DNA of 54,984 nucleotides from Thraustochytrium aureum (Eukaryota): assembly GCA_012862495.1 (NCBI GenBank), contig BLSG01000291.1:120105-175088 (forward strand), read 5' to 3'. This document shows, in pieces, positions 15,501-49,767 of this stretch. The notes under the pieces are model-generated. The model was not told the origin of the DNA and did not search any database. It saw only the letters and a list, made by a program, of their open reading frames with translations. The translations under genes were made by a program, and so were the position numbers. Position 1 is the first letter of the stretch. Each line of letters starts with the position of its first letter.

Positions 15501-18236
15501 GTGGCCGGCCATCGCCACGTCACGCACCGCTTGCAGAGCGCGGTGCGTGGCTCGAAGATCGGGCTCGATCCACACGTTGACCAAAACCGCTTCGCGCGCG
15601 GCGACGAGAAGCGACAGAGCCAGGGGCGTGCCTGCGAGGTCCTCGACGACCGAGCAGTACGCGATGGCAGCCACCGTGGTCGCCCACTCCGAGCGGGGAA
15701 ACGCAAGGCACTCTTTTGCTGGGTCAGCACGCATCGTCCCGGACGGACAGTCAAAGCTTGCTGCTGCGCGAGCACAGGTCCGGAACAGGGCCGAGGGTCC
15801 AAACGCCCGCACATAGCCGTCCACATCAAGGGTTTGGCCTGGGCCAAGCTCGGGCCTGAACGTGGCGTCCATCGTAAACTGAGGTTGCGGCGGGAGCAGA
15901 AGCGAGTGGGCCTCTTTCGAGCCGCGGCAAGGCTGTGCCAGCAACTGAGGCAATGTAAGTGTGTGGCGGAGCCGCCGTCTAGCAGGCCAACCTTGACNNN
16001 NNNNNNNNNNNNNNNNNNNNNNNNNNNNNNNNNNNNNNNNNNNNNNNNNNNNNNNNNNNNNNNNNNNNNNNNNNNNNNNNNNNNNNNNNNNNNNNNNNNN
16101 NNNNNNNNNNNNNNNNNNNNNNNNNNNNNNNNNNNNNNNNNNNNNNNNNNNNNNNNNNNNNNNNNNNNNNNNNNNNNNNNNNNNNNNNNNNNNNNNNNNN
16201 NNNNNNNNNNNNNNNNNNNNNNNNNNNNNNNNNNNNNNNNNNNNNNNNNNNNNNNNNNNNNNNNNNNNNNNNNNNNNNNNNNNNNNNNNNNNNNNNNNNN
16301 NNNNNNNNNNNNNNNNNNNNNNNNNNNNNNNNNNCCTATCCCGCAAGTACTGCAGCTCGAGCCACGGGTCGGAGCCTCCGGGTGGCGTGTGTGAGCACGA
16401 GGAGGCCGTCCCATCGGTGAAAGAGGAGGTTGTATCTCCGTCGATCGCGTGCGAGGCCAGATACACGGAGAATTGCTGGCTTTGACGCGCCCCGACGAAC
16501 GACACCCTTCGCCCGCTCTTGGTGGTGCCCATGACTTCGCATACGGTGAGGATCTTGTCCTTTCCAGGAAGGACAAAGCGCACCGTGCCGAGCGCGTCGC
16601 AGCGCTCCTTCTTCGGCACCAGGCGCCAGGCGGCCGAGACCTGTGCCAGCAAGCTCTGTCGTTCGATGTTTGTATTGTCGGCTGCTGTGCGCAAGCTGTC
16701 CAAGCTGGTGCGCATTTCGGCCAACTCGTCTGCGAAGACATGCTCGGCGTATCGACTGTGCCGTCCGACGCGAATCTCTGCAAGGAGCTCCTCGGTGCAC
16801 TCGACGAGAATCTCCAAAGCGTTGTCCAGGTCCTCCTCGGCCGTGGTGTTCAGGACTGTTGTCACGAACGCGTGCATAGCAGGAATGTTTGGCTTGGCCT
16901 TGCATCGGTTTTTGGAGGCATCCCAAATGAGCGCGAGTCCCTCAGACTCGAGGCCAGTGCATACCGACTGTCCCGCGTCGCCGGTGGACTGGCCGGCCGG
17001 GCACTTGGTGCAGTTTTGGGCGTTGGCTTCGTTTGGTGTGCTCCCGATAGGGCACGGTGTGCACGAGGACTGGCCACCCGCGGTCCCAAACCCATTTGAA
17101 AGCGAGCACTTGTCGCACGAGGTCATGCCGAAGCCGCTTGCCTTGGTGCCGGGAAGGCAACTGTTGAACCTGGACGCTCCCGTCCCGGGCACGACAGTTC
17201 CCGGAGGCGCGCTTTTGCAGCTTGTCTGGCCCTTTTCATCTTGGTACATGCCAGGAGGGCACGCGGTCTTGGTGTTTTCCGAGCACTTCGACCCCACTGG
17301 GCAAATCGTCCGCACCACATTGTTCGAAGCCCCGATTGTGCAAGTGTAGCCTGGAGGGCACGTGGTGCAAACCGATAGACCACCTAGCGTGTTGTGGGGG
17401 CATGGTTCGCACGTCGTCTTCCCCGAGCTTGGCTGGTATGTCTGTCGGGGGCAATCAACGCAGTGGTTTATCGAGGTCCTGGACTTGGTTGAGTCGCCAA
17501 ACTGGCCCGACCGGCACTTTATGCATACTGAATACCCCTGACGGGACCACGTCCCGGCTACGCAGGCCCTGCAGCTGGTTGACCCGGAGGACGATGACTG
17601 GCCAGCGGGACAGGGTTGGCAGCCCGTTGCGCTTACGCGCTTCTGCCCGGCTGGGCACACCGCGCAGAAGCCACCATTCGCGGCTTCGCTCGACTTTTGC
17701 TCAGAGGCGCTGCATGAAACGCACGAGACTTTGCTTGCGGCGGGTTCCTCGCCCGCCGGACACCATCTAGTAGTGCTACCGCCGTTGCAAACTTTGCCGC
17801 GTGGACAAGTGGAGCAAATGCGATCGACTCCCCTGCTTGCCTCGCGCGTGCGAACCTCGGATCTCGAGCACGCGGCAGTCTCGGCATCCGACACGGTGTA
17901 CCAACCGCGGCAGACATCTGTTGCCGACCAGAACGCAGCGCAGTCTGCCGTGATTCTGCTTGCCCCAATCTGTACGAGATCGAAGGCTTGGTTGGTCCGA
18001 TGGCTCCTCAACACTCGGTTCGAGGAGTCGTAAAACGTGATCACGATATCGTGGTGGTTTTCCGGTTCGTACTTGATCCACATCGCGGGTTCGCGTTTGC
18101 TGGACGTCCATACTAGGTCTGGAGCGCTAGCGTGGTGGTCGTGCCTTTCCCTTCCTCCCGAGACAGAGGCCCATGTTCTCGTCGCCTGGGTCGTAAGGAC
18201 AACGGCCAAGATGAGGTTGCGCAGCGTCGCGCGCAT
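12534..18236 (-). CDS. ~1900-aa type I membrane protein: signal peptide, Cys-rich (GCC2/GCC3, TNFR-like) repeats, F-type lectin-like domain, long helical region, beta domain, TM helix
   Basis: N-terminus MRATLRNLILAVVLTTQA. Many CxxCPxG repeats (~16950-17830). QSQQF...ASHAIDG...SCSHT...DPW is a fucolectin-type motif. TM AAIGVFVTLAVVAAVVGFVVI is followed by KQRR. The gene spans gap 15998-16334. Confidence 0.8.
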   Translation of the reverse strand: MRATLRNLILAVVLTTQATRTWASVSGGRERHDHHASAPDLVWTSSKREPAMWIKYEPENHHDIVITFYDSSNRVLRSHRTNQAFDLVQIGASRITADCAAFWSATDVCRGWYTVSDAETAACSRSEVRTREASRGVDRICSTCPRGKVCNGGSTTRWCPAGEEPAASKVSCVSCSASEQKSSEAANGGFCAVCPAGQKRVSATGCQPCPAGQSSSSGSTSCRACVAGTWSRQGYSVCIKCRSGQFGDSTKSRTSINHCVDCPRQTYQPSSGKTTCEPCPHNTLGGLSVCTTCPPGYTCTIGASNNVVRTICPVGSKCSENTKTACPPGMYQDEKGQTSCKSAPPGTVVPGTGASRFNSCLPGTKASGFGMTSCDKCSLSNGFGTAGGQSSCTPCPIGSTPNEANAQNCTKCPAGQSTGDAGQSVCTGLESEGLALIWDASKNRCKAKPNIPAMHAFVTTVLNTTAEEDLDNALEILVECTEELLAEIRVGRHSRYAEHVFADELAEMRTSLDSLRTAADNTNIERQSLLAQVSAAWRLVPKKERCDALGTVRFVLPGKDKILTVCEVMGTTKSGRRVSFVGARQSQQFSVYLASHAIDGDTTSSFTDGTASSCSHTPPGGSDPWLELQYLRDRXXXXXXXXXXXXXXXXXXXXXXXXXXXXXXXXXXXXXXXXXXXXXXXXXXXXXXXXXXXXXXXXXXXXXXXXXXXXXXXXXXXXXXXXXXXXXXXXXXXXXXXXXXXXXXXXXQGWPARRRLRHTLTLPQLLAQPCRGSKEAHSLLLPPQPQFTMDATFRPELGPGQTLDVDGYVRAFGPSALFRTCARAAASFDCPSGTMRADPAKECLAFPRSEWATTVAAIAYCSVVEDLAGTPLALSLLVAAREAVLVNVWIEPDLRATHRALQAVRDVAMAGHRAGFAILEGKASPYLQVALELSPTLDRLAREVSSANANRLQTVVRVPRVCRRFGCPGNLDRIKSDLDTSRILEQLNANYGFLSAAIFDSWSALREQISSGFSQTQINIAALGQLVTNVNAQVSKDQASKFGELAGNLAQDAGGRKNVADLQVVDGEDKLDSVFERIISDNQSFAELFEELVENSGFLNVTAGEFYECRKQEALAQLARNRVTAVFDVIIGAGSMAGEIGAFVLSGGASSLKKGAAKAGATMSKQVSNANKLLRSKFKRGKRRGKRTKDDGDDKEGDEYSFDDFVQDFGEDLPDLSDEQKNIIRDGIANGIDFLTNPKLQDVKGWVTFVQGNLGTLGSLGVPGMDGAAQLLGGVYALIDEARQRKGIEDAANAGLKAADETFRDVATAVTELAETSAFLLLEVYDIMSSDEPPAGVSSIESNSRSLWRDVQARVVRFFKTSEMYADFTDAVSGRRLLLEGSESAAALPASAMLKMRATTQTSLAPPRSSAQLQRALNEKEGCDQVVPLAQRGLAELDQYLHILDRVVLFGETMHDSMVELVQTSRDLRIARLESKVNGESESRWVDAADRIKIAASASDGAISDFFLDFKDVMDQFRLTVPELTVVKGAAVAERIEKLVSEAHDGVVRDACAQAWYQALEAPASCSSNLAQVFSTTDPKDGLSAFINTVKADVSNTILNAPVQRDDWVRFPVMSALEVAALASNGSLSSETVVTLDLTRRIGTECGTRAEVLAVTAVLENLADEGRPVILDDWVGGSPTFVPINVQPRGPFIKIDEQGRRHAFRIADVQDPAGHPTIVTAQSCSEVAEDEHVGTRLPSDFRLCIKNPRVELDPTPLLAKYDITLGPYAKVIESHLDSVYLQLALYVKVSANDVKPSCKIPATLGFALDGGDRPGDGSGEGKEGEKGDGEASESDTAGLSGGAGAAIGVFVTLAVVAAVVGFVVIKQRRNTASGLSEHPSKPEPALAIANPSIGKDVAIV

Positions 18237-19358
18237 GATCTCCCTTGCGCTCCTTCGCGCGCTTGCTTTCAATCAATCAAACGCTGCTCCTGCGCCCGCT
18301 CGCCCTGTTGTTGGCTGTTCGCTTTCGTTGTTCCTATGCCACTTGTTGCTTCGCGCAGCTCTTTCACTGATCAGCCTGAGCTGATGGGGGGGGGTTTGTT
18401 GGCCTTCTTCCTGTCCATGCGTGCGCCCACGTTGAGAGCCCCATCAAGGAGGCGCCACGGCGGTGAGATAGGCGTACTCCAAACAAGTAGACGGTAAGGA
18501 CCACGAGGCGGAGAGCCTGCGCGCGCTCCGAGCTGAACCTCTGATGANNNNNNNNNNNNNNNNNNNNNNNNNNNNNNNNNNNNNNNNNNNNNNNNNNNNN
18601 NNNNNNNNNNNNNNNNNNNNNNNNNNNNNNNNNNNNNNNNNNNNNNNNNNNNNNNNNNNNNNNNNNNNNNNNNNNNNNNNNNNNNNNNNNNNNNNNNNNN
18701 NNNNNNNNNNNNNNNNNNNNNNNNNNNNNNNNNNNNNNNNNNNNNNNNNNNNNNNNNNNNNNNNNNNNNNNNNNNNNNNNNNNNNNNNNNNNNNNNNNNN
18801 NNNNNNNNNNNNNNNNNNNNNNNNNNNNNNNNNNNNNNNNNNNNNNNNNNNNNNNNNNNNNNNNNNNNNNNNNNNNNNNNNNNNNNNNNNNNNNNNNNNN
18901 NNNNNNNNNNNNNNNNNNNNNNNNNNNNNNNNNNNNNNNNNNNNNNNNNNNNNNNNNNNNNNNNNNNNNNNNNNNNNNNNNNNNNNNNNNNNNNNNNNNN
19001 NNNNNNNNNNNNNNNNNNNNNNNNNNNNNNNNNNNNNNNNNNNNNNNNNNNNNNNNNNNNNNNNNNNNNNNNNNNNNNNNNNNNNNNNNNNNNNNNNNNN
19101 NNNNNNNNNNNNNNNNNNNNNNNNNNNNNNNNNNNNNNNNNNNNNNNNNNNNNNNNNNNNNNNNNNNNNNNNNNNNNNNNNNNNNNNNNNNNNNNNNNNN
19201 NNNNNNNNNNNNNNNNNNNNNNNNNNNNNNNNNNNNNNNNNNNNNNNNNNNNNNNNNNNNNNNNNNNNNNNNNNNNNNNNNNNNNNNNNNNNNNNNNNNN
19301 NNNNNNNNNNNNNNNNNNNNNNNNNNNNNNNNNNNNNNNNNNNNNNNNNNNNNNNNNC

Positions 19359-20179: not shown

Positions 20180-20277
20180 AAACCTAACCGAACCTAACCG
20201 AACCTATCCAAACCTATTCGAACCCTAGCTAGCGAACCCTAACCAACCCTAACCAACCCTAGCTAACCCTAACCAAC
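20180..20277. repeat. Degenerate telomere-like (AACCCT/AACCTA) tract
   Basis: aacctaaccg aacctaaccg aacctatcc ... aaccctaacc aaccctaacc aaccctagct aaccctaacc, with a period of about 10 nt. Confidence 0.8.
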
Positions 20278-20695
20278 ATGATCGGGCTTTGTTTGTTTTG
20301 TTCTCTCTGCTCTCGAGTACTCCACCATGATGACGTCCGACTTGCCGATCTACTACTACATATCTTGCCTGGCGTGGCACTCGAGCGCGAAGNNNNNNNN
20401 NNNNNNNNNNNNNNNNNNNNNNNNNNNNNNNNNNNNNNNNNNNNNNNNNNNNNNNNNNNNNNNNNNNNNNNNNNNNNNNNNNNNNNNNNNNNNNNNNNNN
20501 NNNNNNNNNNNNNNNNNNNNNNNNNNNNNNNNNNNNNNNNNNNNNNNNNNNNNNNNNNNNNNNNNNNNNNNNNNNNNNNNNNNNNNNNNNNNNNNNNNNN
20601 NNNNNNNNNNNNNNNNNNNNNNNNNNNNNNNNNNNNNNNNNNNNNNNNNNNNNNNNNNNNNNNNNNNNNNNNNNNNNNNNNNNNNNNNNNNNNNN

Positions 20696-21749
20696 ACGCC
20701 AGACGTGCAGGTGCGGTCCCACACGACGCGCTGTACTATGGCAAGTGCCTTGCGGGCGGCGCGTTGGCGTGCGGCGTGACGCACACCGCGCTGTGCCCCG
20801 TGGATGTCGCAAAAGTCTCGATGCAAGTCGAGCCGCAGAAATACAAGTCGCTCGGTGGCGCGCTCAGGCTGCTCTACGCCGAGAACGGGTTTGGCGGCAT
20901 CACGCGTGGCTGGGCGGCCACGGGATTCGGGTACTCGCTGCAAGGCATGTTCAAGTTTGGCCTGAACGAGGTCTGCAAGGACGAGTTTGCCAACATGGCT
21001 GGCGAGGAAAACTCCACCAAGTATCGCGGCCTGCTGTGGGCCGCCTCGGCGGCGTCCGCCGAACTTGTGGCTGACGTGTTCCTCTGCCCTTTTGAAATGG
21101 TCAAGGTCAAGCAGCAAACCGCGTTTGATTTCCCGGGCCGCTTTGCGGCCGCTGCGGCAGCCATGAGCGCGGATCGAGCCAACACGCGCTTTCCATTCGG
21201 GTCGATCGGTCCGCTCTGGGCGCGCCAAATCCCGTACACTGTTGCCAAGTTCGTGGGGTTTGAGTTTGTGGTGGAGCAGTTCTACACGCACGTCTTTCAG
21301 GCTCCCAAAGACTCGTACCCAAAGTCGACGCAGCTTGGCATCACCTTTAGCTCGGGCTGTAAGTCTTTTGTTGCTGCTGGGGTTTGCTTGCTTGTCCCAC
21401 CGGATGTTGAGTTGTTGGAGTTTTCGCGCCGCACGACGCTGACATCAGACACCCCGACCTCGAACCCGGCGTGCTGCTCTTGCTCCGCGCAGACATCGCC
21501 GGCGTCTTTTGCGCTCTGGTCAGCCAGCCGGCAGACAACCTCGTCAGCCAGATGGGCAAGTCCAGTAACAAAGGCAAGGGTTTCGCGGAGATCGCTCGAG
21601 AGGTCGGGGCGCGCAACTTGTTCCTCTCTGGCCTGGGCAGCCGCATGTTTATGATCGGCACGCTTACAGGCCTCCAGTGGTACATTTTTGACACCTGGAA
21701 GGTGGCCGTCGGTCTCGGCACCACTGGAGGAAACCACGCCCAAAAGTAG
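20696..21749 (+). CDS. SLC25A3: Mitochondrial phosphate carrier (SLC25A3/Mir1/Pic2 family), paralog 1; intron 21359-21492; start in gap
   Basis: Motifs ACGVTH..LCPVDVAK, GYSLQGMFKFG, LCPFEMVKV, RQIPYT, SQPAD, RMFMIGTLTGLQW. GTAAGT...GCAG intron with CTGAC. Confidence 0.93.
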
Positions 21750-21938: not shown

Positions 21939-24900
21939 CTAGATGCGGGACTTGACACACTCCACGTCCGTCATGTACCACTTGGCCAACAGCAACCGCC
22001 TCGGCGCGTCCTCGGTGCGGCTAATCACGCCAAAGAGGTTGTCCAAGAACCACTCGTGTGTGAGCGGCGCGACTTTGGCAATCGCAACCCCCGTCCTAGT
22101 CTTGTACACGTCGTTGCCTTCAGCCTCGGCGTCAACGCCTTGCGCGGACTGCTCACGACCAGCCCCGGGTCGTTCTGCAAAGCCTCCAAACGCGGCGAGC
22201 GCCAGACCAGGTCGGCGGCACCCTCCAGAGCGAGCGGGAGCGCCGGCAGCGACAGCGCTTTGAGCGAGGTGAACATGAGCGTGGCCAGCGTGGCCCCATT
22301 CCCGCCAGGCCCGCCGGCGCGGCCCGCCATGCGCTCGTCAACTGCAAGCAGCAGTCTGCGGAACGCCATCACGGCGACCGTTTGCGCTCGCACATCCGGG
22401 TCGCGGCCTAGAGACGTGCACAGCGACCCGACGACGAAGGAGAGCAGTTGGGTCGGTGTGCCGTGCGGGTGCGACGCAACGGCTGTCTCGACGTATCTCG
22501 GCACAATTGCCAGCCGCAGCGGCGGCGGGCGCACCAGCGCTTCAGCCGAGAGCCGCCTCCCAGCTGCCTCCTCGACACTCGCGATAGCAGTCGTAGCCAT
22601 CGATGCGACCTATGATTAAGGTGAACGAACGCATGCCGCACGCCAATTTGGACAAGCACGTCCGCCAAGAGGCTGGCAAGAGCTCTACGCCGCTCCAGCG
22701 CGTCTACATCACCAGCAGGGCTCGCCTCGGCATTGGCGCGTTCAGTGGCTTGAGCCGCTCTTTTGGGAGGGCGTCGCTTTTGCTGCTTTCCTGTGGCCGC
22801 CTGGCGTCGCTCCCGATCAAACGCGTCCAACACAGACTCTGCCGAAACCACCACAAAGCCGACGCCACGATGGCTCTCTGCGACCGGCCCGCCGCTGTCC
22901 TGATCCAAAAGCTCGTCAGGGGACGAGAGCGCCGGCAGCTTGCATGATTCCACGAACGCGTCCAGGAGCCATCCCTCCCCGAGACCGCACAGAAATTCGA
23001 CGCGGGCCCCGAGCACCCAGTCGTGGACCTGTCCCAACTGTTTGGAATTCTCGGCGGCGCCTTGCTCGACAATCGCCGACTCGCTTCGGTCCACATGTTC
23101 CTGCAGCAAAGTGCCAAGCATAAAGGCGCTGTCTGGCGCTGGGCTCATCTGGATCAGTGCCTGCAAAAGGCCCTCAAGCTCCACGGCGTCCTGCACACGG
23201 ACCTGGAAGGCGCTCAAGTTTGCGACGGCGTCCAAGAGGGCCATGGAAATGGGCGTGTCCACGAGCGGCACGCACCTAGACCCGAGAATCACGGTCGCCA
23301 AGTAGCCCATCTGAAGGAGCCGAGCGATTCCAGAGTGCACGCCGAGATACTCGGCAAGTGGGTCCGTCGGCGGCGTCGGCGGCTGCTTTGGCGACGGAGG
23401 CTTGGCCGCGTGCGATTCATCGTCCTCAGCATCGCTATCGTCACTGTCTTGGCCGACGGCGTCGCCTTCTCGCTCGTCGCCTTCCTGCTCGATGCCTTCT
23501 TTGTTCGTCGTCGACCGTGCGTGTGCCGTCGTCGGTCTCGGCAACCTCCTGGCTTTCCGCTTCCTGGGGGGCAGATGCCCCGGCATCTGCTTCTTTGCCG
23601 GTACCGTAGACAAGTTGAACCGTTCGTCGAGCGACCACCCCGCAGAGCGCGGGCGAGCCGCGGCAGCACCAGTACACTTGCCTCGAAAACCGCTGGAGTC
23701 TGCCAATCATCCAAGCTGACAAGAGGCTGGCGTGCGAGTCGCCCCGGGCTTGCGCAAACACGCCTTCCCCAGGCAGGCGCCCGAGCACCGTCGAGACAAG
23801 CTGCGGGGCGAGTTTGAAGAGCTCGGTCTCTGCAAATTCCCGCGCAGCCTCAGCGCGCCGGTCAAGCGAGAGGTCCCGCCATGGCTCTAGCGCTTCGCCG
23901 CACCAAAGCGAGCCGTGCAGCAGTCCCTCGGTGGCAGCTTGCAGAACCGCCGTGTCCCACTCGATCTGGGCGTCTGCGTAAACCGCCGCTAGGCCCACAT
24001 CCGCAACGAGGCCTCTCGCGCGTCGGGCCTCGCTGTCTAGAGGGGTGGCAAGCGCAGCCGAACTTGGTCTGCGCGATTCGACCATGTCGCAGCGGACCAC
24101 GGCACGCCGGGCTGCTGCGTGGAGAGACCGTTGCACCGCTGGCTGGGGGCTCAAGGACACGTTGGTTGCCCAAGCATAGTCGGGGGCGCCGCGAAGCAGT
24201 CCAGCAGCAACATAGGCAGCTGTATCATGCAGCTCGTCTCGCGTGCCCTCCAAAATCTCCACAACGCAGGCCACGGCAGGGCCGCTCGCCGCCTCGTAAG
24301 GCTGCAGCGACGCTGCACTCATAAAGTGGCCGTGAATCGCGCGCGCGAGAATCGAGCCATGGGCAAAGCCAACAGAGTCGCTCGATCGCCAAAGGCGCAT
24401 GATGCGCCGCAGCAGGTCGGAACCCACGACAAAGTGGAGGTTGACTTGCTGCTGCTGCTTGAGGCCGTTCTTGGCATAGGCGTCCAACTGCGTCGCTCGA
24501 GCTGCGAGCTCGGCAAGTGCCTCAAGAAGGTCTTGCACCGCACTAGGCTCGAGCGGCGCAGGAGGCCCGAGCTCGCTGCGGTCCAACACCCGCGTTAGCA
24601 GCTTGCAGGCAAAGGCTACGCAAGCAGGGGCCACGCGAGCAGGCCGGGCGCGCGAAAGCGCAGTGGCCATGAGGGCAATCGCGCGCGCACCAAGGGCTAC
24701 GTTGCCATTCTGGTGCGCTTGGCTGGCTGCCCGCTCGGGCGGCGAATCGATGCGCTGCAGGATGTCTACGCAAACGTTGATTGCGCGCTGGAGCGCCCGC
24801 CCCGTAGGCTCCATGTCTTCCGCCTCAACAAGGCGGTCGGCCCGAAGCTTGCGCGTGGGGATGGTCGAGATGTGCGAGGGGACCAGGTCGATCTTGGCGC

Positions 24901-27900
24901 GGATGGCCGCCTGCAGAACCTCGTTCTCCGTGAGCCCCTTGCCCTGCAGATATTCAACGCGCTCCTCAAGTGGAACCATCCTGTTGGACGGGTCTTTCAG
25001 GAAGGCCGCCCCGCGTTCTACATACTCGTCACGGACTGCAGCCATGTCCAGAGCGGGCCGCTCTGTCCCGCTGAGCCCCGAAAGCTCGATCGCAGCCGCT
25101 ATCTCCGACTCACTCAGTCCCTTGCTGCGAAGGTAGGCGACTCGCTCCTTAGGGTCCACCGTTTGCGTGGATGCGTTCCCAAGGAATGTAGCGGCTTGCC
25201 GTACAAGCGCATCTCGCTCCCCCTCTGGGCCCAAAGCCTGGGCCTCCTCACCCCCCCCAGCGGCCCCATCGGAAGGCGGCGCGATGCCAGCCACCGCTAA
25301 CGCCTCATCGACCTGCGCCTGGGACAAGCCTTTCTCGCGCAAGAAAGCAACTTGGCGCGCAGCGGTATAACCTTGGGCGCTCGTCTTGCGGAGGAAAGCT
25401 ACGCCCTGGGCCACGAGCGGATCGCTCGGCTGCGCCGCTCCACCGGCTGTTGCGGCGCTGTGGAGCTCAAATGCGGCGCCAATCTCCACATCAGAGAGGC
25501 CCTTGCTCTTCATAAACGAGAGCTTCTCCGCGTCGCTGTATCCGGCGCTCTTTAGGTTGGCGAGGAAAGCGCGTCCTTGCTTGACTTGGTCTGGGCGGGC
25601 CCCAGGATGGGATTCGAGGACGGCCCGCTCAACCTGCACGGCGGCTTGCCTTTCAACTCCCACTTTGGCAAACGCAGCATCGATCTCGGCCTCAGTGAGG
25701 CCCTTGTCGCGGAGGAAGCCGACGCGACTCTCGATTGAGGCACCGAGCGTTGAAGGATTGCGAAGAAAAGTAGCCCCTTGCTCGACTAGAGCACTCCGCG
25801 CGGCCCTTTCGTTGCTCTTGTCGTCGTGGACAGCATCGCCGTCCTCGGTGNNNNNNNNNNNNNNNNNNNNNNNNNNNNNNNNNNNNNNNNNNNNNNNNNN
25901 NNNNNNNNNNNNNNNNNNNNNNNNNNNNNNNNNNNNNNNNNNNNNNNNNNNNNNNNNNNNNNNNNNNNNNNNNNNNNNNNNNNNNNNNNNNNNNNNNNNN
26001 NNNNNNNNNNNNNNNNNNNNNNNNNNNNNNNNNNNCTACCGACGAGGACGACCCGCGCGTCTTCTCAAGGAAGGCACTTCCGGCGAGGACGCGCTTCGGG
26101 TCTGGCTCTGCGTTGCCCTCCGCCGCCGCCGCCTCAGCGTGTAGGGCTTGATCCAGAAGGTTGGCGTCCAGGCCCGCCTCGGCGCCGGCGCTGCGAAGCT
26201 GCGCATCGGTCAGTCCTTGCAACCGCAGGAATCCAGCTTGTCTTTCATCGGCTTGGCGGCTGTGACCGGGTCGCGTAGAAACCGCGCCGCGCTCGCCACC
26301 ACCGGCTCCTTCGGCTCTGCCTGCGCGTCGCCAGCATCGTGGGCCGCCTCCGCGCACGTGTCTGCAATCGCTTGGATCTCGGCTAGTTCGAGGACTTCCC
26401 CGACCATCGCGAGCGCCTCCTCAATCTCGTCAGCGGAGAGTCCTTTGTCAACCAGAAAGCGAACTCTGTCGCCGATTCCAGAGCTGGCCGCGCCCTTGTG
26501 CCGCAGGAATCGCTCGGCTTGCTTGATGCGCTTTGCGCGCGCGACGCGCTTGGCCGTCTCCTCCGACGCGTCCCGGTGGCTCGAATCGTGCTCTGCGTCG
26601 ATGCCCGACGTCTTCGCTTCTGGTTCACTGCTGTTGGCCGTCTCGTCATCGCTAGGCGCGCCACGAGACGGACCCGCCTCGCGCTCCTCCCCGCCTGCGC
26701 CTGTGCAGTTCATAGAAAGATGGGCGCTTGTTGGGTTTCGAGATAGGCCAGCCGTGCGATTGGGGCCAACGCCTCCAAACCCCGAGTCGCCCTTCGCCAG
26801 CGCGAAGGCCTCTTTGATTTCAGCGTCGGAAAGGCCCTTGGAGCGCAAAAAGCGGACCTTCTCAACATCCGAGCGGGACTTGGCCGAAGGGTGCCGAAGG
26901 AATTTGACCGCGTTTTGGACGCTCGCGGATGCGGACGCACCGTCGTTTGATGCAGCCCCCCCGGCTTTGCCCATGGGCGCGGCGTAAGGCGAGCCGGACT
27001 CCTCGCAAGCGGCTTGGATTTCAGGCTCTGTGAGACCTTTGTTGCGCAAAAACGCGAGCTTTTCCTCGGTGGACTTGCCAACAACGGTTGGGTGCGTCAG
27101 GAACGTGACACCCTTTTGCACCATCTCGCGCCGGTTTGCACCAGGCTCCACAACACCGGCAATAGACTCTGAGCCTCCTCGAGGTACCGGACCAGCGACC
27201 GGTGAGGCGGCGCGCAGGCTCGGTTCAGCCGCACCAGGGCCATCGATATACTCGGCGCGCAAGGCCGGAGTCAAGACGACACCGGCTCGCTCGCAAGCCT
27301 GGTCTATCTCGCGCGAGATCAGCCCCTTGCCCTTGAGGAAATCAAGCTTTTGCCGCAGCGTCTTGGCCTGCACCGACGGGTGCTTGAGGAAGGTTGCGCC
27401 GTTGCTGACCATGTCCTCGCGGGCTTCCCGAGCCTTGTAGGCGGCAAGACGGTCTAGCTGCTCAACGGTCGGAATGTGGTCTGGCTGTGACAGCTCGCAG
27501 GCTCTGATGATCTCGGGGTTGCTCAAGCCCTTGGCCTTGAGGAACGCGAGCCTCTCGTCAACTGGCTTTCTCTTGATTTCGTCCATGGCGAGAAAGGCAG
27601 CGCCGTTCTCGACCATGTCCTTGCGCAGGGGCTCGTTGAACTGGTAAGATGCGGGCGGTTCAATGCCAACCTGCGCGCAGGCAATGCGAATCTCCGTGCG
27701 GTTCAGGCCCTTGTCTGCAAGAAAGGCCAGCTTCTCGTCGATGGAGCGCCCCTTCACTTGGTCGTCTTCCAAGAAGGTCACTGCGGAGTCGATCAGCTCG
27801 TCGCGCAAGGGGTCTTCGATCGGCACGCCGTCCTCGGGCACATTGGCTTGCAGTTTTGCTGCCCACCGACTGACCAGCCTCAGGGCCTGGCCCTGGAGGC

Positions 27901-28090
27901 CTGCGAGCTTGTCGTCCCGACTGGCGGCCAGCTCCAGCAGCCACTCGACATGCTCGAGGTCAAACACAGCCTCGCACCCTTGCAAGATCTCGACAGCCCG
28001 CTCACTCTCGCCGTCCCGAGCCGCGCGCCTGGCCAGCTCGACCGGCTCGAGGGCATCGGCGCCACTACTGGTCCGTGTTGCCGCCGCCAT
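21939..28090 (-). CDS. ~2000-aa protein with at least 13 tandem Pex14 N-terminal domains and a PEX8-like helical C-terminus
   Basis: The unit R..lV..A..FL..P.v......eKl.FL..KGL...EI..A recurs 13 times between ~27810 and ~24900. The ORFs are joined across gap 25851-26035 and frame breaks at ~26232, ~23710, ~22610 and ~22160. The protein ends LFGVISRTEDAPRRLLLAKWYMTDVECVKSRI*. Confidence 0.75.
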
Positions 28091-28326: not shown

Positions 28327-31254
28327 CTAGAAGACTCCGTTGGAGAGCTGAAGAGCGCAGGGAAATGCTCGGCAGCTGCGGACAGCGCGCGCCCGTCGAA
28401 TGAGCCGCTGACGAGGATTGGGACAAGTTGGGAGAAGGTGGGACACGCTGTCGCAGGAAGCGGCCACCGGTGAAAGCGACCGCGACAGCGACAGCGACAG
28501 CGACGGCCGAGCTGCGCGGTTGGCGTGCGAGCGGAGGTCGTGGTTCCTGGCGTGATGCATGTTGACAAGCTTGGCGAGCGCCGAGAGGCGCCGGCTGGAC
28601 TTGGGGCCTTCCCCTTTCGCAGTTCAGGAAAACTGAAGTGGTCAAAGTTGGGTTGAGACAGCGATCAAACAGTTGCTCGGCTTTGCGCCAAAGGTTGCTA
28701 GACGCCCTCGGGGCGAGCGGGGACAACGCCCCCTTCCAGCTTGGTTGCGCTGCCGCTGAACGCCGAGTCTGCCCCGAGTCTGAGCTCTTAATGAGCGCGT
28801 AGCCTATGAAGCCAACGAAGGCGACGCCAAGAATCGAAAACACAACGCTCTGCCAGACGGTCGAGGCGGTCCCGGCGCTGGCGTCCGCATCCGGCTGGTC
28901 GACTTCAGCGACGGCGGCGGAAGACCGGCACAAGAGCGCGTCAGCGTCAGCGTCATAGCTTGCAATCCAGTCGTCCCGCACAAACACCATCGTCGCGTAC
29001 GGCGGCACCTTGGTGCCCTTGAGGAGGAGCCTGGCCACCCCGTCCTCGGCCGTCTTCGCCGTCGCCGAAAAGTTCGAGAGGATGTCGGTGTACGNNNNNN
29101 NNNNNNNNNNNNNNNNNNNNNNNNNNNNNNNNNNNNNNNNNNNNNNNNNNNNNNNNNNNNNNNNNNNNNNNNNNNNNNNNNNNNNNNNNNNNNNNNNNNN
29201 NNNNNNNNNNNNNNNNNNNNNNNNNNNNNNNNNNNNNNNNNNNNNNNNNNNNNNNNNNNNNNNNNNNNNNNNNNNNNNNNNNNNNNNNNNGTGGCCTCTG
29301 CGCCATGGCCATTGACAACAACGACGACTTCCTGGTCCTTGGTCGTGCGCGAGAACGCGACCAGGCCTGCCGATGCAGACAGCTGGCCGCCGGCCTGGCG
29401 GTACGTCTGGGCGCCGCGGCGAAGCGGGGCGCACGAGTCGCGCACCACGTTGAAGCGGCGGATCGCTGCCGCGATGGGGCTGTCGAGCTTGAGGAATGGG
29501 TCTTGCTTCCAGTTCTTGGTGAACGGGTTTGGCCCTGACCGAGAGATGTTCATGAGGGCGCTGGCGCGGGACGCGTCGGCCATGCCGAGGTTGTAGCCCG
29601 CCCCAGCCCACATTGTCTGGCGAAAGAGCGAGTCGAACCAGCCGCCTGACCAGGTCCCGTCGCAGTGCTCGCGAATCAGCTTGGTGGGATTGTCGTTTCC
29701 AGTCTCGAAGCCAACGTTGATGGCGGCATAGCTGCAGTTCCCGTTGAAGCCCTGCTCGCTGCCGTAGTAGACGAGCGGGAGGCCCTCGGCGAAGTGCACG
29801 TAGGACTGGGCAGCAATGGCACCCGGCTCGTTGCTGAGCCAGCCCGGGTCGTCGCCCTTGCGGTGGAGGAAGCGCTCCTTGTCGTGCTGGTCGGCGTAAA
29901 GCCAAAAGTTGGTCAGGTTTGCTGCCACCGCGAGCTCGGCTCGCTCCACTGACCCGAGCTGCGACGTGAAGCGGGATGCCGGGTTGGCATAGCGGCCCCA
30001 CTGGCGCAGCGCGTTGCTGTGATCGAAATCGTAGGCGCCGGTCCAGCCCGCAAATGGCTGGTTCGGGTGCTTGGAATAGGTGGGCTCGACGGCACCAAGG
30101 ACCTGCGCAGTGCGCGCTGTGGTGAAAGCGTTTGTGGCAACTTGGCCGACCTGGCGGAGCTGGAATTCGGCAGCCTTTTCGTCCGAAGCGATCTCGCCGA
30201 TCATGAAGAGGTTGTCCTTGCCCAGCGCGAGGGCGTAGTCTCGGACGTGCGTGCAAAAGTAGGCCGCAAACGAGTCGGAGGTGTGCTTGACTGCGTCGAG
30301 GCGGAAGCCGTCCACGTCGGCGGCGGCGACCCAGTACTTTGCCATCTCGGTGAGTAGGAGCTGAACGTCGGGGTCCGCCGAGTTCAAGTCAAACATGTAG
30401 TTGTCAACGAAATCGCCGTAGATTGTCTCGGACGGCTTGTCGCTGAGCGTCCAGTCCACGCCGCCGCAGCGGCTGAGAAAGTCTGGGTGGCGCAGCGGCG
30501 GGAAGAACGAGTCGGCAAACAGGACCTCGCGGCGGCCTCGGATCGCCTCCTTGGCGATTGTACCGTTCTCGTGCGCGTACATGTCGTCGGTGCATGCGTA
30601 GTGGTCGCGCGCCCAGTCCCAGTCTTCCGTGGCGTTGTACAGCGTGGCGGGGTCGCACACGTGGTTGACGACAAAGTCCATGATGATGTACATGCCCCGC
30701 TTGTGCGCCTCGCGGGTGAGCTCCTGGAGGTCGGCCAGCGTGCCGAATGAAGGGTCTATGCGCAAGTAGTTGCTCATGCAGTACCCGTGGAAGATGCTGT
30801 CTCCGTTGAAGAGGAAGCTGGTCAAGAATACAGTGCGGGCCCCAAGGGCTTTGATGTAGTCGAGGCGGTCAGTGACTCCGCGAATGTCGCCGCCGTGCTT
30901 GTACTTGTACGTGCTCCAGTACTGATCATTGTCTTGCTCCCACCGTTGCCAGGGCGGCAGGTTGAGGTCGTCGTTGCTCGAGTCGCCGTTGTTGAACCTG
31001 TCCGTGAAGATCTGGTACACCGAGTGGTCGCCCCACGCTTCGGGGCTCGGCATGCGGCCAGTGCCGCCGGCGTCGGCGTTGGCCGCGGCAAACTCTGTCT
31101 CGCCGATCGCGGCCAGCCCCTCGGCCCACTGCCTCACGCTTGCTTTGCCGCCAGGCGCGCCGGCGTCGGGGAGGTTTTCGTCCCAAACGCCACCATTGGC
31201 TACTGCGACGAGGGCAAAGCAGCCAGCGACTGCTCGTCGGGCTGCGCGGCCCAT
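28327..31254 (-). CDS. Secreted, membrane-anchored GH13 alpha-amylase family glycoside hydrolase (3' end uncertain, about 28232-28330)
   Basis: Signal peptide, then YQIFTDRF.NGD, GGDIRG...LDYIKALG, HGY, DFVVNH, DGFRLDAVKH (nucleophile D), IGE (acid/base), QHD, GLPLVYYGSEQ. After gap 29095-29290 comes a TM segment VVFSILGVAFVGFIGYALI. Confidence 0.9.
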
Positions 31255-32175
31255 TCTCGCTTCGTNNNNNNNNNNNNNNNNNNNNNNNNNNNNNNNNNNN
31301 NNNNNNNNNNNNNNNNNNNNNNNNNNNNNNNNNNNNNNNNNNNNNNNNNNNNNNNNNNNNNNNNNNNNNNNNNNNNNNNNNNNNNNNNNNNNNNNNNNNN
31401 NNNNNNNNNNNNNNNNNNNNNNNNNNNNNNNNNNNNNNNNNNNNNNNNNNNNNNNNNNNNNNNNNNNNNNNNNNNNNNNNNNNNNNNNNNNNNNNNNNNN
31501 NNNNNNNNNNNNNNNNNNNNNNNNNNNNNNNNNNNNNNNNNNNNNNNNNNNNNNNNNNNNNNNNNNNNNNNNNNNNNNNNNNNNNNNNNNNNNNNNNNNN
31601 NNNNNNNNNNNNNNNNNNNNNAGGAAACGACGGGCCTCGGAACACTCGCGACGAGCAGGGGCCGCCAGGTCAAGATGGCTCGTCTCCGTTGGCAGTGCGC
31701 ATCTTTGAGGATGATGAAGGATCCGACCGCGTGAGCGCGTGAGGTATCGGATAGAGTATGCGTGGTGGCTGACTGCGCGGCGTCGCTCGAGACCTGGACA
31801 ACGTCAGTTCGAGACCAAGCTGGGTTTTTGTGGCACTCGCTGTTGCTCAGCAAGTCTGGCGGCCCGAGGCTGGCTGGCCCGGTCTGCCGCGCAGGCGCGG
31901 GCGGATCCGAGTGAGTCAACGTGGACGTGCCGGCACGCCGCTCAGGATGGACCATGCGGGAAGCTGCCGCAATTGAAAAACCTTCTGCTAGCCCGCTTCG
32001 AAAGCAGCAGGCGCGAGCGGCGGGAGTGCACGAGCAGCGGGCCACTCGCGCACCCAGGGCGGGCGGGCGGGCGGGTGGCACGGGACAACCCCGGTTTTCT
32101 CGCTCTGACGGGGCAACGCAAAAGAAAAGAAAAGCGATTGGAGCTGGATGGAGCTGGTTCTCGCGGGTTGAGGGC

Positions 32176-33309
32176 TTAGTGGAGGGTGGCCGGGTCGGTG
32201 AAGTGGAACTTCTTGGCGCCGGTGGCGGCCATGACGATGTCAAAGATGCCGAATTGGCCGGCCGTGAGCGTGCCGATCATGACGCAACGCGGGAGCAGGC
32301 CAGTGAAGCAGAGGTTGACAAAGCCCATCTCGGCGGCGACGCGGCCGAGGCGCACGACGATCGAGCCGTCGCCACCGGCGCCGGGCTTGTTGATGACACT
32401 GAGGAGGGTGTCGGCGGGGTGCGAGATGACGGCAGCGGCAACACCGGCGATGACACCAGAGGACAGCGAGATGGTGAGCTTGGTGGAATCGGAGGAGGTG
32501 GCGAGCTCGGTGCCGGTGGCGATGCAGATCTGCTCCTGGGCCCAGCCCTGGACGGCGAACTTGGCCATGGTGTACGGGATCTGCTTGAACAGGATGGGGA
32601 CAAAGCCGGAGTAAAAGCCCTTGACGAAGCCCTCGTCCTTGATGATCTTGGGGAAGGCGCCCAGCAGGCCGTTGGCGTAGCTCGGGTTGGCGACGAGCTT
32701 GATGCGGGTGGCCTCGAGCGGGCAGAGGAAGCAGTCGGCGATGAACTCGGCGCAGGCGGCGGACAGCAGGTAGATGGGCATGCGCATCTCCCAGGCCTTC
32801 TCCACGCCGAGGTACTGCGCCTGCTGGATCTTGAAGAACTCGACACCGCCAAACTTGAACCAGCCCTGGATGAAGTAGCCGACGGCGGTCGGGCCGAGGC
32901 CGGTGGCGAGCGCGCCGACACCCTCGTCAGCGATGACGGTGCGGAAGCCCGAAATCATGCCCTTGTTGTACTTTTTGGGCTCGAGCTGGATGCGGGTCTT
33001 GACGACGTCCACGGGGCAAAGAGCGCCATGGGTAATGCCGCAGCAGATCTGTCGTTCCAACGCCGGTCAGAAAACATCCCGGCGCGCCGCCAGCCAGCCA
33101 CCCAGCCAGCCACCGCCCCGCCGCAACCTCCCCTCAGGCCAACGTACCCCACCCGCGAGCGCCCCCTTCAGGTAGTACGTCAGGTCAAACGGGCCCTGCT
33201 CGCCGCTGTACGCGCGCACAGCCGGCGAGAACGCGCGCACTTTCGGCGCGGCGACAACAGCGGGGGAGCGCTGTTCCGCCTGGAGCATCTGAGCGATCGG
33301 GCCAAACAT
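32176..33309 (-). CDS. SLC25A3: Mitochondrial phosphate carrier (SLC25A3/Mir1 family), paralog 2; intron 33049-33147
   Basis: GALAGG|ICCGITHGALCPVDVVKTR, GYFIQGWFKFGG, LCPLEATRI, KQIPYTMAKF, SHPAD, RCVMIGTLTAGQF. The 99-nt GT-AG intron contains CTGAC. Confidence 0.95.
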
Positions 33310-34393
33310 CCTCGCAAGTCACGTCCACCCTCAATACGATCCGATGCGACAACCGGTTGCGCGCTGCTCTCTCCTGACGCTCCTCGGCCTCCTTCCCTCC
33401 TGCTGCTCGCTCTGCTGGCTGCTGCTCGCGCGTTACAGCTCTGCCGCTCTGCCTTTCTGCGGGAGGGCGGCTGGCCGGCCGCTCGACCGACGCCCTGACC
33501 CTCTATATCTACACGCCGCACCTTACATCCAGGCACGTGGCGAAATAGCGGGCCTTCGACGCGCGCGCCGCCCTAACCGAGCGGCTTAGGGCGGTGGGCT
33601 CCGGGGAAACTCTTGGTTCGCGCGGCGGCGGGAACCTAACCCAGAACAACCGGGAGCGAGGTGAGAACCTAACCCGGGGGCGGCGTCGGGGGAACTGGAC
33701 CGAGGTTTGCCCGAGGNNNNNNNNNNNNNNNNNNNNNNNNNNNNNNNNNNNNNNNNNNNNNNNNNNNNNNNNNNNNNNNNNNNNNNNNNNNNNNNNNNNN
33801 NNNNNNNNNNNNNNNNNNNNNNNNNNNNNNNNNNNNNNNNNNNNNNNNNNNNNNNNNNNNNNNNNNNNNNNNNNNNNNNNNNNNNNNNNNNNNNNNNNNN
33901 NNNNNNNNNNNNNNNNNNNNNNNNNNNNNNNNNNNNNNNNNNNNNNNNNNNNNNNNNNNNNNNNNNNNNNNNNNNNNNNNNNNNNNNNNNNNNNNNNNNN
34001 NNNNNNNNNNNNNNNNNNNNNNNNNNNNNNNNNNNNNNNNNNNNNNNNNNNNNNNNNNNNNNNNNNNNNNNNNNNNNNNNNNNNNNNNNNNNNNNNNNNN
34101 NNNNNNNNNNNNNNNNNNNNNNNNNNNNNNNNNNNNNNNNNNNNNNNNNNNNNNNNNNNNNNNNNNNNNNNNNNNNNNNNNNNNNNNNNNNNNNNNNNNN
34201 NNNNNNNNNNNNNTCGGGGCACCGCGTCTTCGTTGATCCCGATCATGCATGGGCTCATCGATGTTCTGCATGTTGCGGGCAGATCCTCAACGAGCACGGG
34301 CTACTCATCGAAGCGAGATTGGATCTTGCCTGATACGTCGAGCGGCCTGCAAGACAAGTGGGTGGCGTCCAGCTCGCGTGCGCGTTGCGTGGC

Positions 34394-35467
34394 ATGCAGA
34401 GGAGACTGGGCAAGCTCTTGTGCGCAAAGTCGGTCAAGGCGAGCAAGGGCATCCAGGGAACGAGGACGGCCAGCACGATGCAAGGCGCCAAGACGGCTAT
34501 GGACGAGGTGTCCAAGAAGGGCGCGTTCGTGCGCACAGAGTCGCAGTTTCGCAACTGGATCAAGGCCGACGGCAGCACAAAGTTCGCCCCCGAAGCCGGC
34601 AGGTATCACCTCGTGGTGAGCTACGCTTGCCCCTGGGCCAGCCGCTGCTTGTTCCTGCGGGAGTTCAAGGGGCTGAATGACGCCATCGCCTTCACTACGG
34701 TGCGGCCCGTGATGGTCAAGACCTCGGAAGACCCCGAAGACAAACACCACGGGTGGGAGTTCGACAAGCCCTTCCACGGGGCCAAGACCGTGCGCGCCTT
34801 TTACGAAAGCAAGGCGGACAACGTGGCAAAGTTTACCGTCCCGATCCTGTACGACGAAAAGCTCGGCGAGATCGTCTCGAACGAGTCGAGCGAGATCATC
34901 CGCATGTTCAACAGCGAGTTCAACGAGTTTGCCACCAAGAACAAGGGCGTTGATCTCTACCCGGAGGAGCTCCGCGCCGAGATCGACGCCGCCAACGAGT
35001 GGGTGTACCCCTGGATCAACAACGGGGTGTACCGCTCCGGCTTCGCGCAGACGCAAGAGGCCTACGACGAGGCGGTCACGGACGTGTTCAAGGGCCTCGA
35101 CCGCGCCGAGGAGGTCCTTGCGGCACAGCGGTACATTGCCAGCAGCGAGGAGATCACCGAGGCGGACGTGCGTCTCTTTGTCACGCTGGTGCGCTTTGAC
35201 GAGGTGTACCACGGCCACTTTAAGTGCAACAAGCGACTGTTGGCCCAGTACCCAAACATCCACAACTATGTCCGCGAGATCTACCAGATCCCCGGGATCG
35301 CGGACACGGTCAACATGGAGCACATCAAGGAGCACTACCACCGCTCGCACCCGACCATTAACAAGTTTGGCATTGTCCCCATCGGCCAGGACGCCGAGGC
35401 GGGGTTCAAGGAGCCGCACGACCGGGAGGCCAAGTTCCCGCTCGGCCACAAAAAGCAGCGCGCTTAG
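34394..35467 (+). CDS. Glutathionyl-hydroquinone reductase (GST Xi/omega-like; YqjG/ECM4 family)
   Basis: GRYHLVVSYACPWASR, FTVPILYD, IVSNESSEIIR, INNGVYRSGFA, RLFVTLVRFDEVY.GHFKCN, HIKEHY.RSH..IN..GIVP. Start may be ATG 34394 (basic, presequence-like) or 34478. Confidence 0.95.
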   Translation: MQRRLGKLLCAKSVKASKGIQGTRTASTMQGAKTAMDEVSKKGAFVRTESQFRNWIKADGSTKFAPEAGRYHLVVSYACPWASRCLFLREFKGLNDAIAFTTVRPVMVKTSEDPEDKHHGWEFDKPFHGAKTVRAFYESKADNVAKFTVPILYDEKLGEIVSNESSEIIRMFNSEFNEFATKNKGVDLYPEELRAEIDAANEWVYPWINNGVYRSGFAQTQEAYDEAVTDVFKGLDRAEEVLAAQRYIASSEEITEADVRLFVTLVRFDEVYHGHFKCNKRLLAQYPNIHNYVREIYQIPGIADTVNMEHIKEHYHRSHPTINKFGIVPIGQDAEAGFKEPHDREAKFPLGHKKQRA

Positions 35468-49026: not shown

Positions 49027-49767
49027 CCTGCGGGCGAAAGCAAGCAAGCAAGCTCCACGACTTGAACCAGCAGCAGCAGTGTAGCAGGAGCACGAAATGC
49101 AAAACCGCGCAGCGCTTCACGCGGCTCGATGCGCACAAAACGAGGATCCGCCGCGCTGCTCTTGCCCTGCAGGTCCCGAACGATCGGGGTCTGTCGGGCT
49201 CCTCGGCCGCATTGACATCCAGCCGCAGGAAGCGACATGAAGGACTACATCGCAAGAGTCCGGCTATACAGTGTCGTCGGCGAAACATGGCAGTTCAAGC
49301 GCAACATTCAATGATAAGAGGCAACGCGCGCTGGGGTGTATTTGCGGCGATCGCGGCGGAGGTGCCCGTCGGCCAAAATGGCGTGCGCTGGAAGCATGGT
49401 GGCAGGCAAATGGCGTGCAAGTTCGGCGGCGAGGAGGGAGGATGCGCTTGTCTCCTGAAGTGTCCCCTTTTGTCAAGAAAACGGGAGTTGGTTTGGCAGC
49501 GGAGGTTCTTAGCCTGTTGTTGCTGTGCAGCACGGCGCCGAATCCCGGGCTCAACTCGCGGAATTCGCGGCAGTCTGATGAGATGATGACTTGCGTGACC
49601 TGATGAGGAATGAATGCTACTTGCCAGAGCGTGGGTTTCTAAAGAATTCTGAACTGATTCTGGCCGCGGTTCGGCGATTGGGCCCCGGTGTCGGCCTTCG
49701 CGGAGCGGCTAAACGCCGCCGAGTATCGACCGAGGTTCAAGGCGCTCAGCTGTCGAGCTCTGGAGAG

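What the first reader, a model, noticed from the sequence alone, without database searches (positions are those of the whole stretch)
24900..27810. Array of at least 13 Pex14 N-terminal (Pex5-docking) domains in one protein
Seen: the unit REDMVSNGATFLKHPSVQAKTLRQKLDFLKGKGLISREIDQA and 12 diverged copies, separated by variable linkers (one copy is truncated by a gap). Established: canonical Pex14 has a single such three-helix domain, which binds WxxxF/Y motifs of Pex5 and is followed by a membrane segment. Inference: a multivalent array could bind the several WxxxF motifs of Pex5 at once, acting as a receptor sponge, unloading platform or condensate scaffold. No Pex14-type TM/coiled coil is evident, so this is not ordinary PEX14.
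Basis: partly seen in the sequence, partly recalled or inferred. Interest (0 to 1): 0.9.

Follow-up and report, generated by a model that had tools for sequence, protein, structure and literature searches.

The report
Pex14-domain array fused to Pex8
A marine protist gene encodes one giant protein in which 13 copies of the domain that grips the peroxisome import receptor Pex5 are joined to a domain predicted to be the recycling factor Pex8 and end in a peroxisome-entry-type signal, so it likely sits inside the organelle, catches incoming receptors and passes them to the exit machinery.

Summary
The array is real: 13 Pex14_N domains (11 intact, 1 split by an assembly error, 1 running into an N gap). 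All 11 intact copies keep both pocket aromatics. The gene is twice as long as reported. It spans 28090-21939 on the minus strand, about 2018 aa once four single-base errors and the gap are read as in independent runs. After the array comes a ~700-aa HEAT solenoid. Its best structural match in two homologue models is Pichia Pex8 (Z 14.5 against 10.3 next; Z 13.3 against 12.3, a tie). It has a Trp-Tyr pair spaced like Pex8's WWY motif and ends in SRI; 16 of 19 relatives end in PTS1-like tripeptides. The same array-plus-solenoid layout, with 2-13 repeats, occurs in Hondaea, Mucochytrium and unnamed relatives. No sequence-level hit to Pex8 was found, and Pex5 binding was not tested. Best reading: a soluble lumenal Pex14_N-array/Pex8 fusion that traps Pex5 by avidity and hands it to the Pex2-10-12 ligase. 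My six literature searches found no such fusion and no stramenopile Pex8. The scan's notes hold no earlier report of it on other DNA.

The parts
21939..28090 (-). Whole gene, one reading frame of about 2018 aa when four single-base assembly errors and the gap are read as in public runs
   Evidence: tblastn of homologues covers it colinearly in changing frames; run contigs restore each frame; corrected span 6057 nt = 2019 codons
27806..28090 (-). Conserved ~95-aa N-terminal cap, not a Pex14_N repeat, function unexplained
   Evidence: Aligns in 7 of 9 proteins compared, no match to the repeat HMM; no Pfam hit
27665..27805 (-). Pex14_N repeat 1
   Evidence: 87% identical to repeat 1 of the Hondaea protein
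27485..27625 (-). Pex14_N repeat 2
27281..27421 (-).
26993..27133 (-). Pex14_N repeat 4
26792..26932 (-). Pex14_N repeat 5
26399..26539 (-). Pex14_N repeat 6
26172..26311 (-). Pex14_N repeat 7, split by a one-base assembly error at about 26229
   Evidence: two half matches in two frames; contigs of 3 of 4 runs carry one extra base at 26229-26231
25851..26102 (-). Pex14_N repeat 8, first half at 26102-26036, rest inside the N gap (25851-26035)
   Evidence: by eye; one DNA contig bridges the gap with 88 letters, which keeps the frame, and a loose end reads as the second half of a repeat (hand translation)
25658..25798 (-). Pex14_N repeat 9
25457..25597 (-). Pex14_N repeat 10
25286..25426 (-). 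Pex14_N repeat 11
25076..25216 (-). Pex14_N repeat 12
24893..25033 (-). Pex14_N repeat 13, position-specific last repeat abutting the solenoid
21951..24892 (-). Pex8-like HEAT-repeat solenoid with low-complexity inserts; assembly frameshifts at about 23500, 22594 and 22170
   Evidence: aligned to homologues; models of homologues P0015 and P0022 match PDB 8rqt Pex8 best; frameshifts absent from run contigs
21975..21980 (-). Trp-Tyr pair in the last helix, 13 and 12 residues from the C terminus, the spacing of W701-Y702 in the WWY motif of P. pastoris Pex8 (700-702 of 713)
   Evidence: motif position and role from 10.1101/2025.08.30.673231
21939..21950 (-). C-terminal tripeptide SRI plus stop: PTS1-type signal
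   Evidence: fits the plant consensus [SA][KR][LMI] quoted in PMC7710942

Best explanation
The gene encodes a ~2018-aa protein with 13 Pex14_N domains joined to a solenoid predicted to be Pex8 and a PTS1-type end, and it likely works inside the peroxisome lumen as a combined trap and hand-off station for the import receptor Pex5. Shown: the architecture, intact pocket aromatics, the conserved C-terminal tripeptide, conservation across labyrinthulomycetes. Predicted: the Pex8 fold. Inferred steps: (1) Pex5 imports the protein through its PTS1; (2) the solenoid docks on the lumenal face of the Pex2-10-12 ligase through its last helix; (3) Pex5 emerging from the Pex13 pore is caught through its WxxxF/Y motifs by several repeats at once, which stops back-diffusion; (4) the tethered receptor's N-terminal helices pass to the Pex8 groove on the same chain and are fed into the ligase for ubiquitination and extraction.
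For: Pfam Pex14_N E 1e-66 and 5e-46. Pocket Phe35 position F in 11 of 11 intact window repeats, Phe52 position F in 9 and Y in 2; both aromatic in 91 of 96 family repeats (residue roles from 10.1101/2025.08.01.668090). A repeat in the P0022 model superposes on T. brucei Pex14 NTD at 1.5 A over 47 residues. AF2 model of homologue P0015 (pLDDT 85, pTM 0.85): Pex8 8rqt is first of 48,161 chains, Z 14.5, 460 aligned, rmsd 11.5, next Z 10.3. Model of P0022: Pex8 first again, Z 13.3, 454 aligned, rmsd 11.4. Both alignments end at Pex8 residue 706, so the C termini are in register. Accepted PEX8 orthologues also superpose loosely (Arabidopsis on yeast 10.3 A over 558 pairs, PMC12264594 supplement). 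C termini: 9 of 19 match [SAC][KRH][LM], 16 of 19 a wider small-basic-hydrophobic pattern, against 0.3% and 0.6% of internal tripeptides, while tail length varies. An aromatic pair of the WY/WF/WW type sits in the last helix in 16 of 19; the other 3 have AY, AY, YY (print-out, read by eye). [quoted passage not shown] Repeats 1-4 and the last are position-specific across species; 29 of 39 listed strain differences are synonymous against 25% expected.
Against: No sequence-level link to Pex8: three family profiles against PDB sequences gave no Pex8 hit at E<=10, Pfam gave no family for the solenoid, structural identity is 8%. Foldseek ranks Pex8 only 9th for P0015 (E 4.5e-3) and does not list it among the rows shown for P0022; in the P0022 searches Pex8 is tied within 1 Z with PP2A-B56 (12.3), a 90S pre-ribosome chain (12.7) and Kap95 (12.4). 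The tool warns that Z under about 13 is common for helical repeats. The window's own solenoid was not folded; both models are homologues about 20-27% identical to it. The 19 C termini are related, not independent, and GKL/GHL/GRL/VRL are non-canonical. Free Pex14 NTD in cytosol blocks import completely (PMC6548129), so a newly made 13-domain protein should poison import unless it is scarce, masked or imported fast; this is unexplained. About half the repeats have Gly where canonical Pex14 has Ala in helix 1.
Confidence: 0.6

Rival explanations
1. The array stands in for the lumenal domain of membrane Pex14: labyrinthulomycetes have lost canonical Pex14 or its N-terminal domain, and this soluble protein supplies all high-affinity lumenal Pex5 sites. 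This extends the best explanation.
For: 13 sites on one chain exceed the 3-4 of a Pex14 oligomer (PMC13591263). Pex14 was not detected in several other chromalveolates (PMC6203080).
Against: In those lineages Pex5 also lacks WxxxF/Y motifs, the opposite of what this array needs; Nannochloropsis and Ectocarpus keep Pex14. The organism's genome could not be searched.
Confidence: 0.12
2. The solenoid is a generic HEAT scaffold unrelated to Pex8, and the protein is a matrix-targeted Pex5 buffer or condensate scaffold with no direct part in recycling.
For: No sequence hit to Pex8; near ties with other HEAT proteins in the second model; Foldseek not decisive.
Against: Pex8 is first in all four VIA searches with the longest alignment and C-terminal register; PTS1-type end and last-helix aromatic pair are Pex8 hallmarks; a chance top hit that is a peroxin, for a protein fused to peroxin domains, is unlikely.
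Confidence: 0.1
3. The protein acts in the cytosol or on the outer face as a Pex5 sponge or regulator, its PTS1 serving to occupy the Pex5 TPR domain rather than to reside in the lumen.
For: Soluble Pex14 NTD blocks import in cytosol; binding WxxxF/Y motifs would mask the motifs Pex5 needs for the pore; Pex14 NTD topology may be dynamic.
Against: [quoted passage not shown]
Confidence: 0.1
4. The repeats bind other short aromatic helices (Pex13 or Pex19 FxxxF-type motifs, a PTS2 co-receptor) and mainly anchor Pex8 near the import pore; different positions may have different partners.
For: Repeats are position-specific, repeat 1 is 87% conserved, and the first two linkers are fixed at 11-13 and mostly 21 residues, which suggests specialised roles. 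Other Pex14_N ligands are recalled, not from a call.
Against: The canonical Pex5 pocket residues are kept in almost every repeat.
Confidence: 0.07
5. The array is an assembly artefact or a decaying pseudogene (four frameshifts, one gap).
For: Four frame breaks in the window sequence.
Against: All four breaks are absent from contigs of independent runs (2-3 runs each) and the gap is bridged in frame; intact homologues of 1610-2200 aa exist; differences are mostly synonymous.
Confidence: 0.01

Closest known systems
PEX14 (Pfam PF04695 Pex14_N; PDB 2w84, 3ff5, 5aon, 5l87)
   Same: Three-helix domain with the two FL motifs and the KG motif; fold and pocket aromatics kept.
   Different: 13 copies in one chain instead of one; no membrane segment or coiled coil found; soluble layout with a PTS1-type end. 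The database name 'Peroxisomal membrane protein PEX14' for the Hondaea homologue GBG28837.1 reflects only these domains.
Pex8 / PEX8 (P. pastoris PDB 8rqt; S. cerevisiae Pex8; Arabidopsis At1g73970)
   Same: Predicted irregular HEAT solenoid of similar length, best structural match, C-terminal PTS1, aromatic motif in the last helix at the same distance from the end.
   Different: 8% identity, no sequence-level detection; described only in fungi and plants, as a stand-alone protein in the papers read; here fused behind 2-13 Pex14_N domains in a stramenopile lineage.
Ternary Pex5 NTD-Pex14-Pex8 complex of P. pastoris (10.1101/2025.08.30.673231)
   Same: The two partners that bind Pex5 NTD at separate sites are the two modules of this protein.
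   Different: Here they are one polypeptide with 13-fold valency; binding not tested.

Membership tests
Pex14_N domain (PF04695) | Match above the Pfam gathering score | tested here: met
   220.6 and 154.7 bits against a cut-off of 23.2
Pex14_N domain (PF04695) | Pocket phenylalanines 35 and 52 | tested here: met
   11 of 11 and 11 of 11 (9 F, 2 Y) in intact window repeats
Pex14_N domain (PF04695) | Three-helix fold | tested here: met
   Homologue model repeat on 5aon: Z 7.8, 1.5 A, 47 residues; the window's own repeats were not folded
Pex14_N domain (PF04695) | Binds Pex5 WxxxF/Y motifs | not tested
Canonical PEX14 | Single N-terminal Pex14_N domain | tested here: not met
   13 domains
Canonical PEX14 | Membrane segment and coiled coil after the domain | tested here: not met
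   No 19-residue window with hydropathy >=1.6 in the three long window segments (the two short last segments and the frameshifted linker were not scanned); at most 2 heptads in a crude scan
Pex8 | Irregular HEAT solenoid of about 600-800 aa | tested here: met
   All-helical model, pLDDT 85; 8rqt top hit, Z 14.5, 460 aligned, rmsd 11.5; shown on homologues
Pex8 | Specific homology rather than generic HEAT likeness | tested here: inconclusive
   Clear lead in one model (14.5 vs 10.3-10.7), tie in the other (13.3 vs 12.3-12.7); no sequence hit
Pex8 | C-terminal PTS1 | tested here: met
   SRI in the window; 16 of 19 relatives PTS1-like, 9 of 19 canonical; by sequence only
Pex8 | WWY-type motif in the last HEAT helix | tested here: inconclusive
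   KWY in the window with matching spacing; W plus aromatic in 16 of 19, but only two of three aromatic positions and no per-residue structural alignment was shown
Pex8 | Binds Pex5 N-terminal helical bundle and Pex2-10-12; lumenal; needed for matrix import | not testable with these tools
   Needs the cognate partners or experiments

The most novel reading that the evidence does not exclude
Labyrinthulomycetes have moved the lumenal Pex5 ratchet off the membrane: a soluble, PTS1-imported Pex8 carrying up to 13 Pex14_N domains does the trapping and the hand-off to the ligase in one molecule, perhaps in place of the Pex14 N-terminal domain. It would be the first Pex8 from a stramenopile and a natural fusion showing that Pex14_N and Pex8 act on the same lumenal Pex5 molecule.
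Probability: 0.3. Interest if true: 0.92.

Novelty: new variant of a known kind. Interest (0 to 1): 0.82.

Why it matters
Two open questions in peroxisome import are on which side of the membrane the Pex14 N-terminal domain grips Pex5, and how the imported receptor passes from the pore to the recycling ligase. A natural fusion of many Pex14_N domains to a PTS1-bearing Pex8 would put that domain in the lumen by construction and link trapping to hand-off. It offers a soluble, purifiable system to test avidity-driven import. It would also extend Pex8 to a third eukaryotic supergroup, which argues that Pex8 is ancestral and may be overlooked elsewhere. Thraustochytrids are lipid-production hosts (recalled), so their peroxisome import has applied interest.

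Tried and rejected
No genome is held for this window, so canonical Pex14, Pex5 and the RING peroxins of the organism could not be sought. Word-based searches for stand-alone forms of the solenoid gave only fragments of family members; these are weak negatives. PDB sequence searches with three profiles and with P0032 found no Pex8. Pfam gave no family for the solenoid; whether this Pfam copy holds a Pex8 model is not known. The protein atlas gave no answer. A locus search in metagenome contigs found no relative. A Pex5 motif scan gave 116 loci (capped), mostly fungal- or algal-looking by eye, none assignable to labyrinthulomycetes. No run was on record as RNA; X1 and X3 were judged RNA from a spliced neighbour. 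No other peroxin among 38 window ORFs scanned. The plant PEX8 alignment in the PMC12264594 supplement is a picture and could not be read. PMC3879566 and 10.1038/emboj.2009.7 are not held. Rejected: recent tandem amplification (repeats are closer to same-position repeats of other species than to each other for positions 1-5, 10 and 13); introns at the frame breaks (no joints, single-base indels); the N-terminal cap as a 14th repeat.
Full report
Observation. The minus strand carries a long reading frame from ATG 28090. Pfam Pex14_N matches the part before the N gap with E 1.1e-66 (6 stretches) and the part after it with E 4.6e-46 (5 stretches); PDB sequence hits are Pex14 N-terminal domains (12 of 13, 11 of 11). 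A repeat HMM places 11 intact copies and one copy split over two frames; 140 shuffles reach 3.1 bits at most. A thirteenth copy begins at 26102 and enters the gap. The count of 13 stands. The copies share 38% identity on average.

The gene is larger than reported. Four full-length homologues of 1610-2200 aa (one named, Hondaea fermentalgiana GBG28837.1) align colinearly down to the stop at 21939, across four frame breaks. Contigs from public runs (4 laid; 3 informative, from 2 studies) carry the frame-restoring base change at each break: 26229-26231 in 3 runs, 23500 in 3, 22594 in 3, 22170 in 2. One contig bridges the 185-N gap with 88 letters. The corrected span is 2019 codons. Of 39 listed strain differences (39 of the 40 rows shown; 24 more rows were not shown) 29 are synonymous in these frames, against 25% for random changes. 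Runs X1 and X3 splice a GT-AG intron in a neighbouring gene, so they behave as RNA; they cover 29 and 21 of 30 bins of the gene stretch at low depth. That suggests transcription, but DNA carry-over is not excluded. One of these runs may be related to the window's own source.

Family. A profile of the C-terminal domain found 23 proteins among 1.84 billion representatives. All 7 that have more than 250 residues upstream of the domain carry Pex14_N repeats; the other 16 are shorter, mostly fragments, and cannot show whether stand-alone forms exist. Repeat numbers run from 2 to 13. Named members are Hondaea, Mucochytrium quahogii and an Aplanochytrium stocchinoi fragment; the first two are thraustochytrids by taxonomy look-up, the third is a labyrinthulomycete by recall. 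The window is therefore most likely a thraustochytrid (inference). Repeats 1-4 and the last are nearest to same-position repeats in other species (the tree has only 47 columns and many open forks), so the array is old and maintained.

Pockets. Phe35 and Phe52 line the WxxxF pocket (10.1101/2025.08.01.668090, passages). The matching columns, 17 apart, are F in 11 of 11 and F/Y in 11 of 11 intact window repeats; both are F or Y in 91 of 96 family repeats; the following Lys-Gly is invariant in the window (its role as Lys56 is recalled). No membrane segment was found in the three long window segments.

C-terminal half. Pfam and PDB sequence searches leave it unnamed. Two homologues were folded with a 32-row alignment: P0015 (587 aa, solenoid only, pLDDT 85) and P0022 (953 aa, whole, pLDDT 69). 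Against 48,161 chains, P. pastoris Pex8 (8rqt) ranks first for both: Z 14.5, 460 aligned, rmsd 11.5, next 10.3; Z 13.3, 454 aligned, rmsd 11.4, next 12.3, a tie. The second-look searches agree. Foldseek is weaker: rank 9, E 4.5e-3, probability 1.00 for P0015, and not among the rows shown for P0022. Three further features fit Pex8. The alignments end at Pex8 residue 706, in register with the family's last helix. That helix has a Trp-aromatic pair in 16 of 19 members, in the window 13 and 12 residues from the end, as W701-Y702 of the WWY motif that is predicted to contact the RING ligase (10.1101/2025.08.30.673231, sections 9 and 12 and passages). The proteins end in PTS1-like tripeptides: 9 of 19 canonical, 16 of 19 by a wider pattern I chose after seeing them, against 0.3-0.6% background; the exceptions are ASL, SAM and NQN. 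The window's SRI fits the plant consensus (PMC7710942, passages). I put Pex8 homology at about 0.8.

Mechanism. PEX5 enters the lumen whole and is held there by the lumenal PEX14 domain, with avidity proposed (10.1101/2022.05.31.494222, passages; PMC13591263, sections 6 and 7). [quoted passage not shown] Pex5 NTD binds Pex14 and Pex8 together at separate sites. A chain that joins 13 Pex14_N domains to Pex8 would do both: catch Pex5 by several motifs, or several Pex5 molecules, and present them to the groove that feeds the ligase. Each of these steps is inferred for this protein. The main difficulty is that free Pex14 NTD blocks import in cytosol (PMC6548129, passages); the protein must be scarce, masked or imported quickly. 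Cargo release by the repeats is unlikely (PMC12738837, passages).

Novelty. Searches Pex14 + thraustochytrid (0 papers), Pex14/peroxins/stramenopile/Labyrinthul (7), Pex14_N/multiple/domains/tandem (1), Pex8 + stramenopile (4), PEX8/homolog/AlphaFold/protist (2) and Pex8/Pex14/fusion/Hondaea (11, none with Hondaea among the 10 listed) showed no such fusion; most were seen as listings only. PMC8172628 (passages) lists PEX8 as fungal; PMC12264594 (sections 6 and 10 part 1, passages, supplement part 1) adds plants; the 2026 review says fungi and plants. PMC6203080 (passages) does not mention Pex8. Subscription papers, a 2026 Plant Cell structure survey and a thesis cited in the review were not read and could list stramenopile PEX8; bioRxiv supplements were closed. 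The scan's own notes held no look-alike and one different Pex14_N fusion.

Verdict. A real, conserved protein: both modules are of known kinds, but the architecture appears undescribed and bears directly on Pex14 topology and Pex8 function. Interest 0.82; mechanism confidence 0.6.

Noticed in passing
window 27806-28090 (-): A conserved ~95-aa cap precedes repeat 1 in 7 of 9 proteins compared; no Pfam match, not a repeat. Repeat 1 and the first two linkers are the most conserved part of the array.
   Followed up: partly
proteins P0029 / P0032 (not in window): Distant relative of the solenoid's C-terminal part (E 8e-4), 469 aa, no Pex14_N hit in P0029, ends in NQN; a candidate stand-alone Pex8-like protein from another lineage.
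   Followed up: partly
window 32174-33227 (-): Mitochondrial carrier gene with a 99-nt GT-AG intron (33049-33147), spliced in two RNA-like runs at far higher contig depth than its neighbours.
   Followed up: partly
window 12534-18272 (-): 1912-aa ORF with ephrin-receptor-like cysteine-rich repeats.
   Followed up: no
window 39079-41303 (+): Protein kinase plus EF-hand domains (calcium-dependent kinase type) split over two frames, by an intron or another assembly error.
   Followed up: no
window 49768-51447 (-), 28804-31803 (-), 47134-49116 (-), 34334-35467 (+), 5175-6512 (+), 2078-3691 (+), 20263-21654 (+): Carotenoid oxygenase (RPE65), alpha-amylase, Ctr copper transporter, glutathione S-transferase-like, AhpC/TSA, leucine-rich repeat and a second mitochondrial carrier gene; none is a peroxin.
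   Followed up: no
whole window: 14 N gaps and several single-base indels against public runs: frame breaks in this assembly should not be read as pseudogenes.
   Followed up: partly
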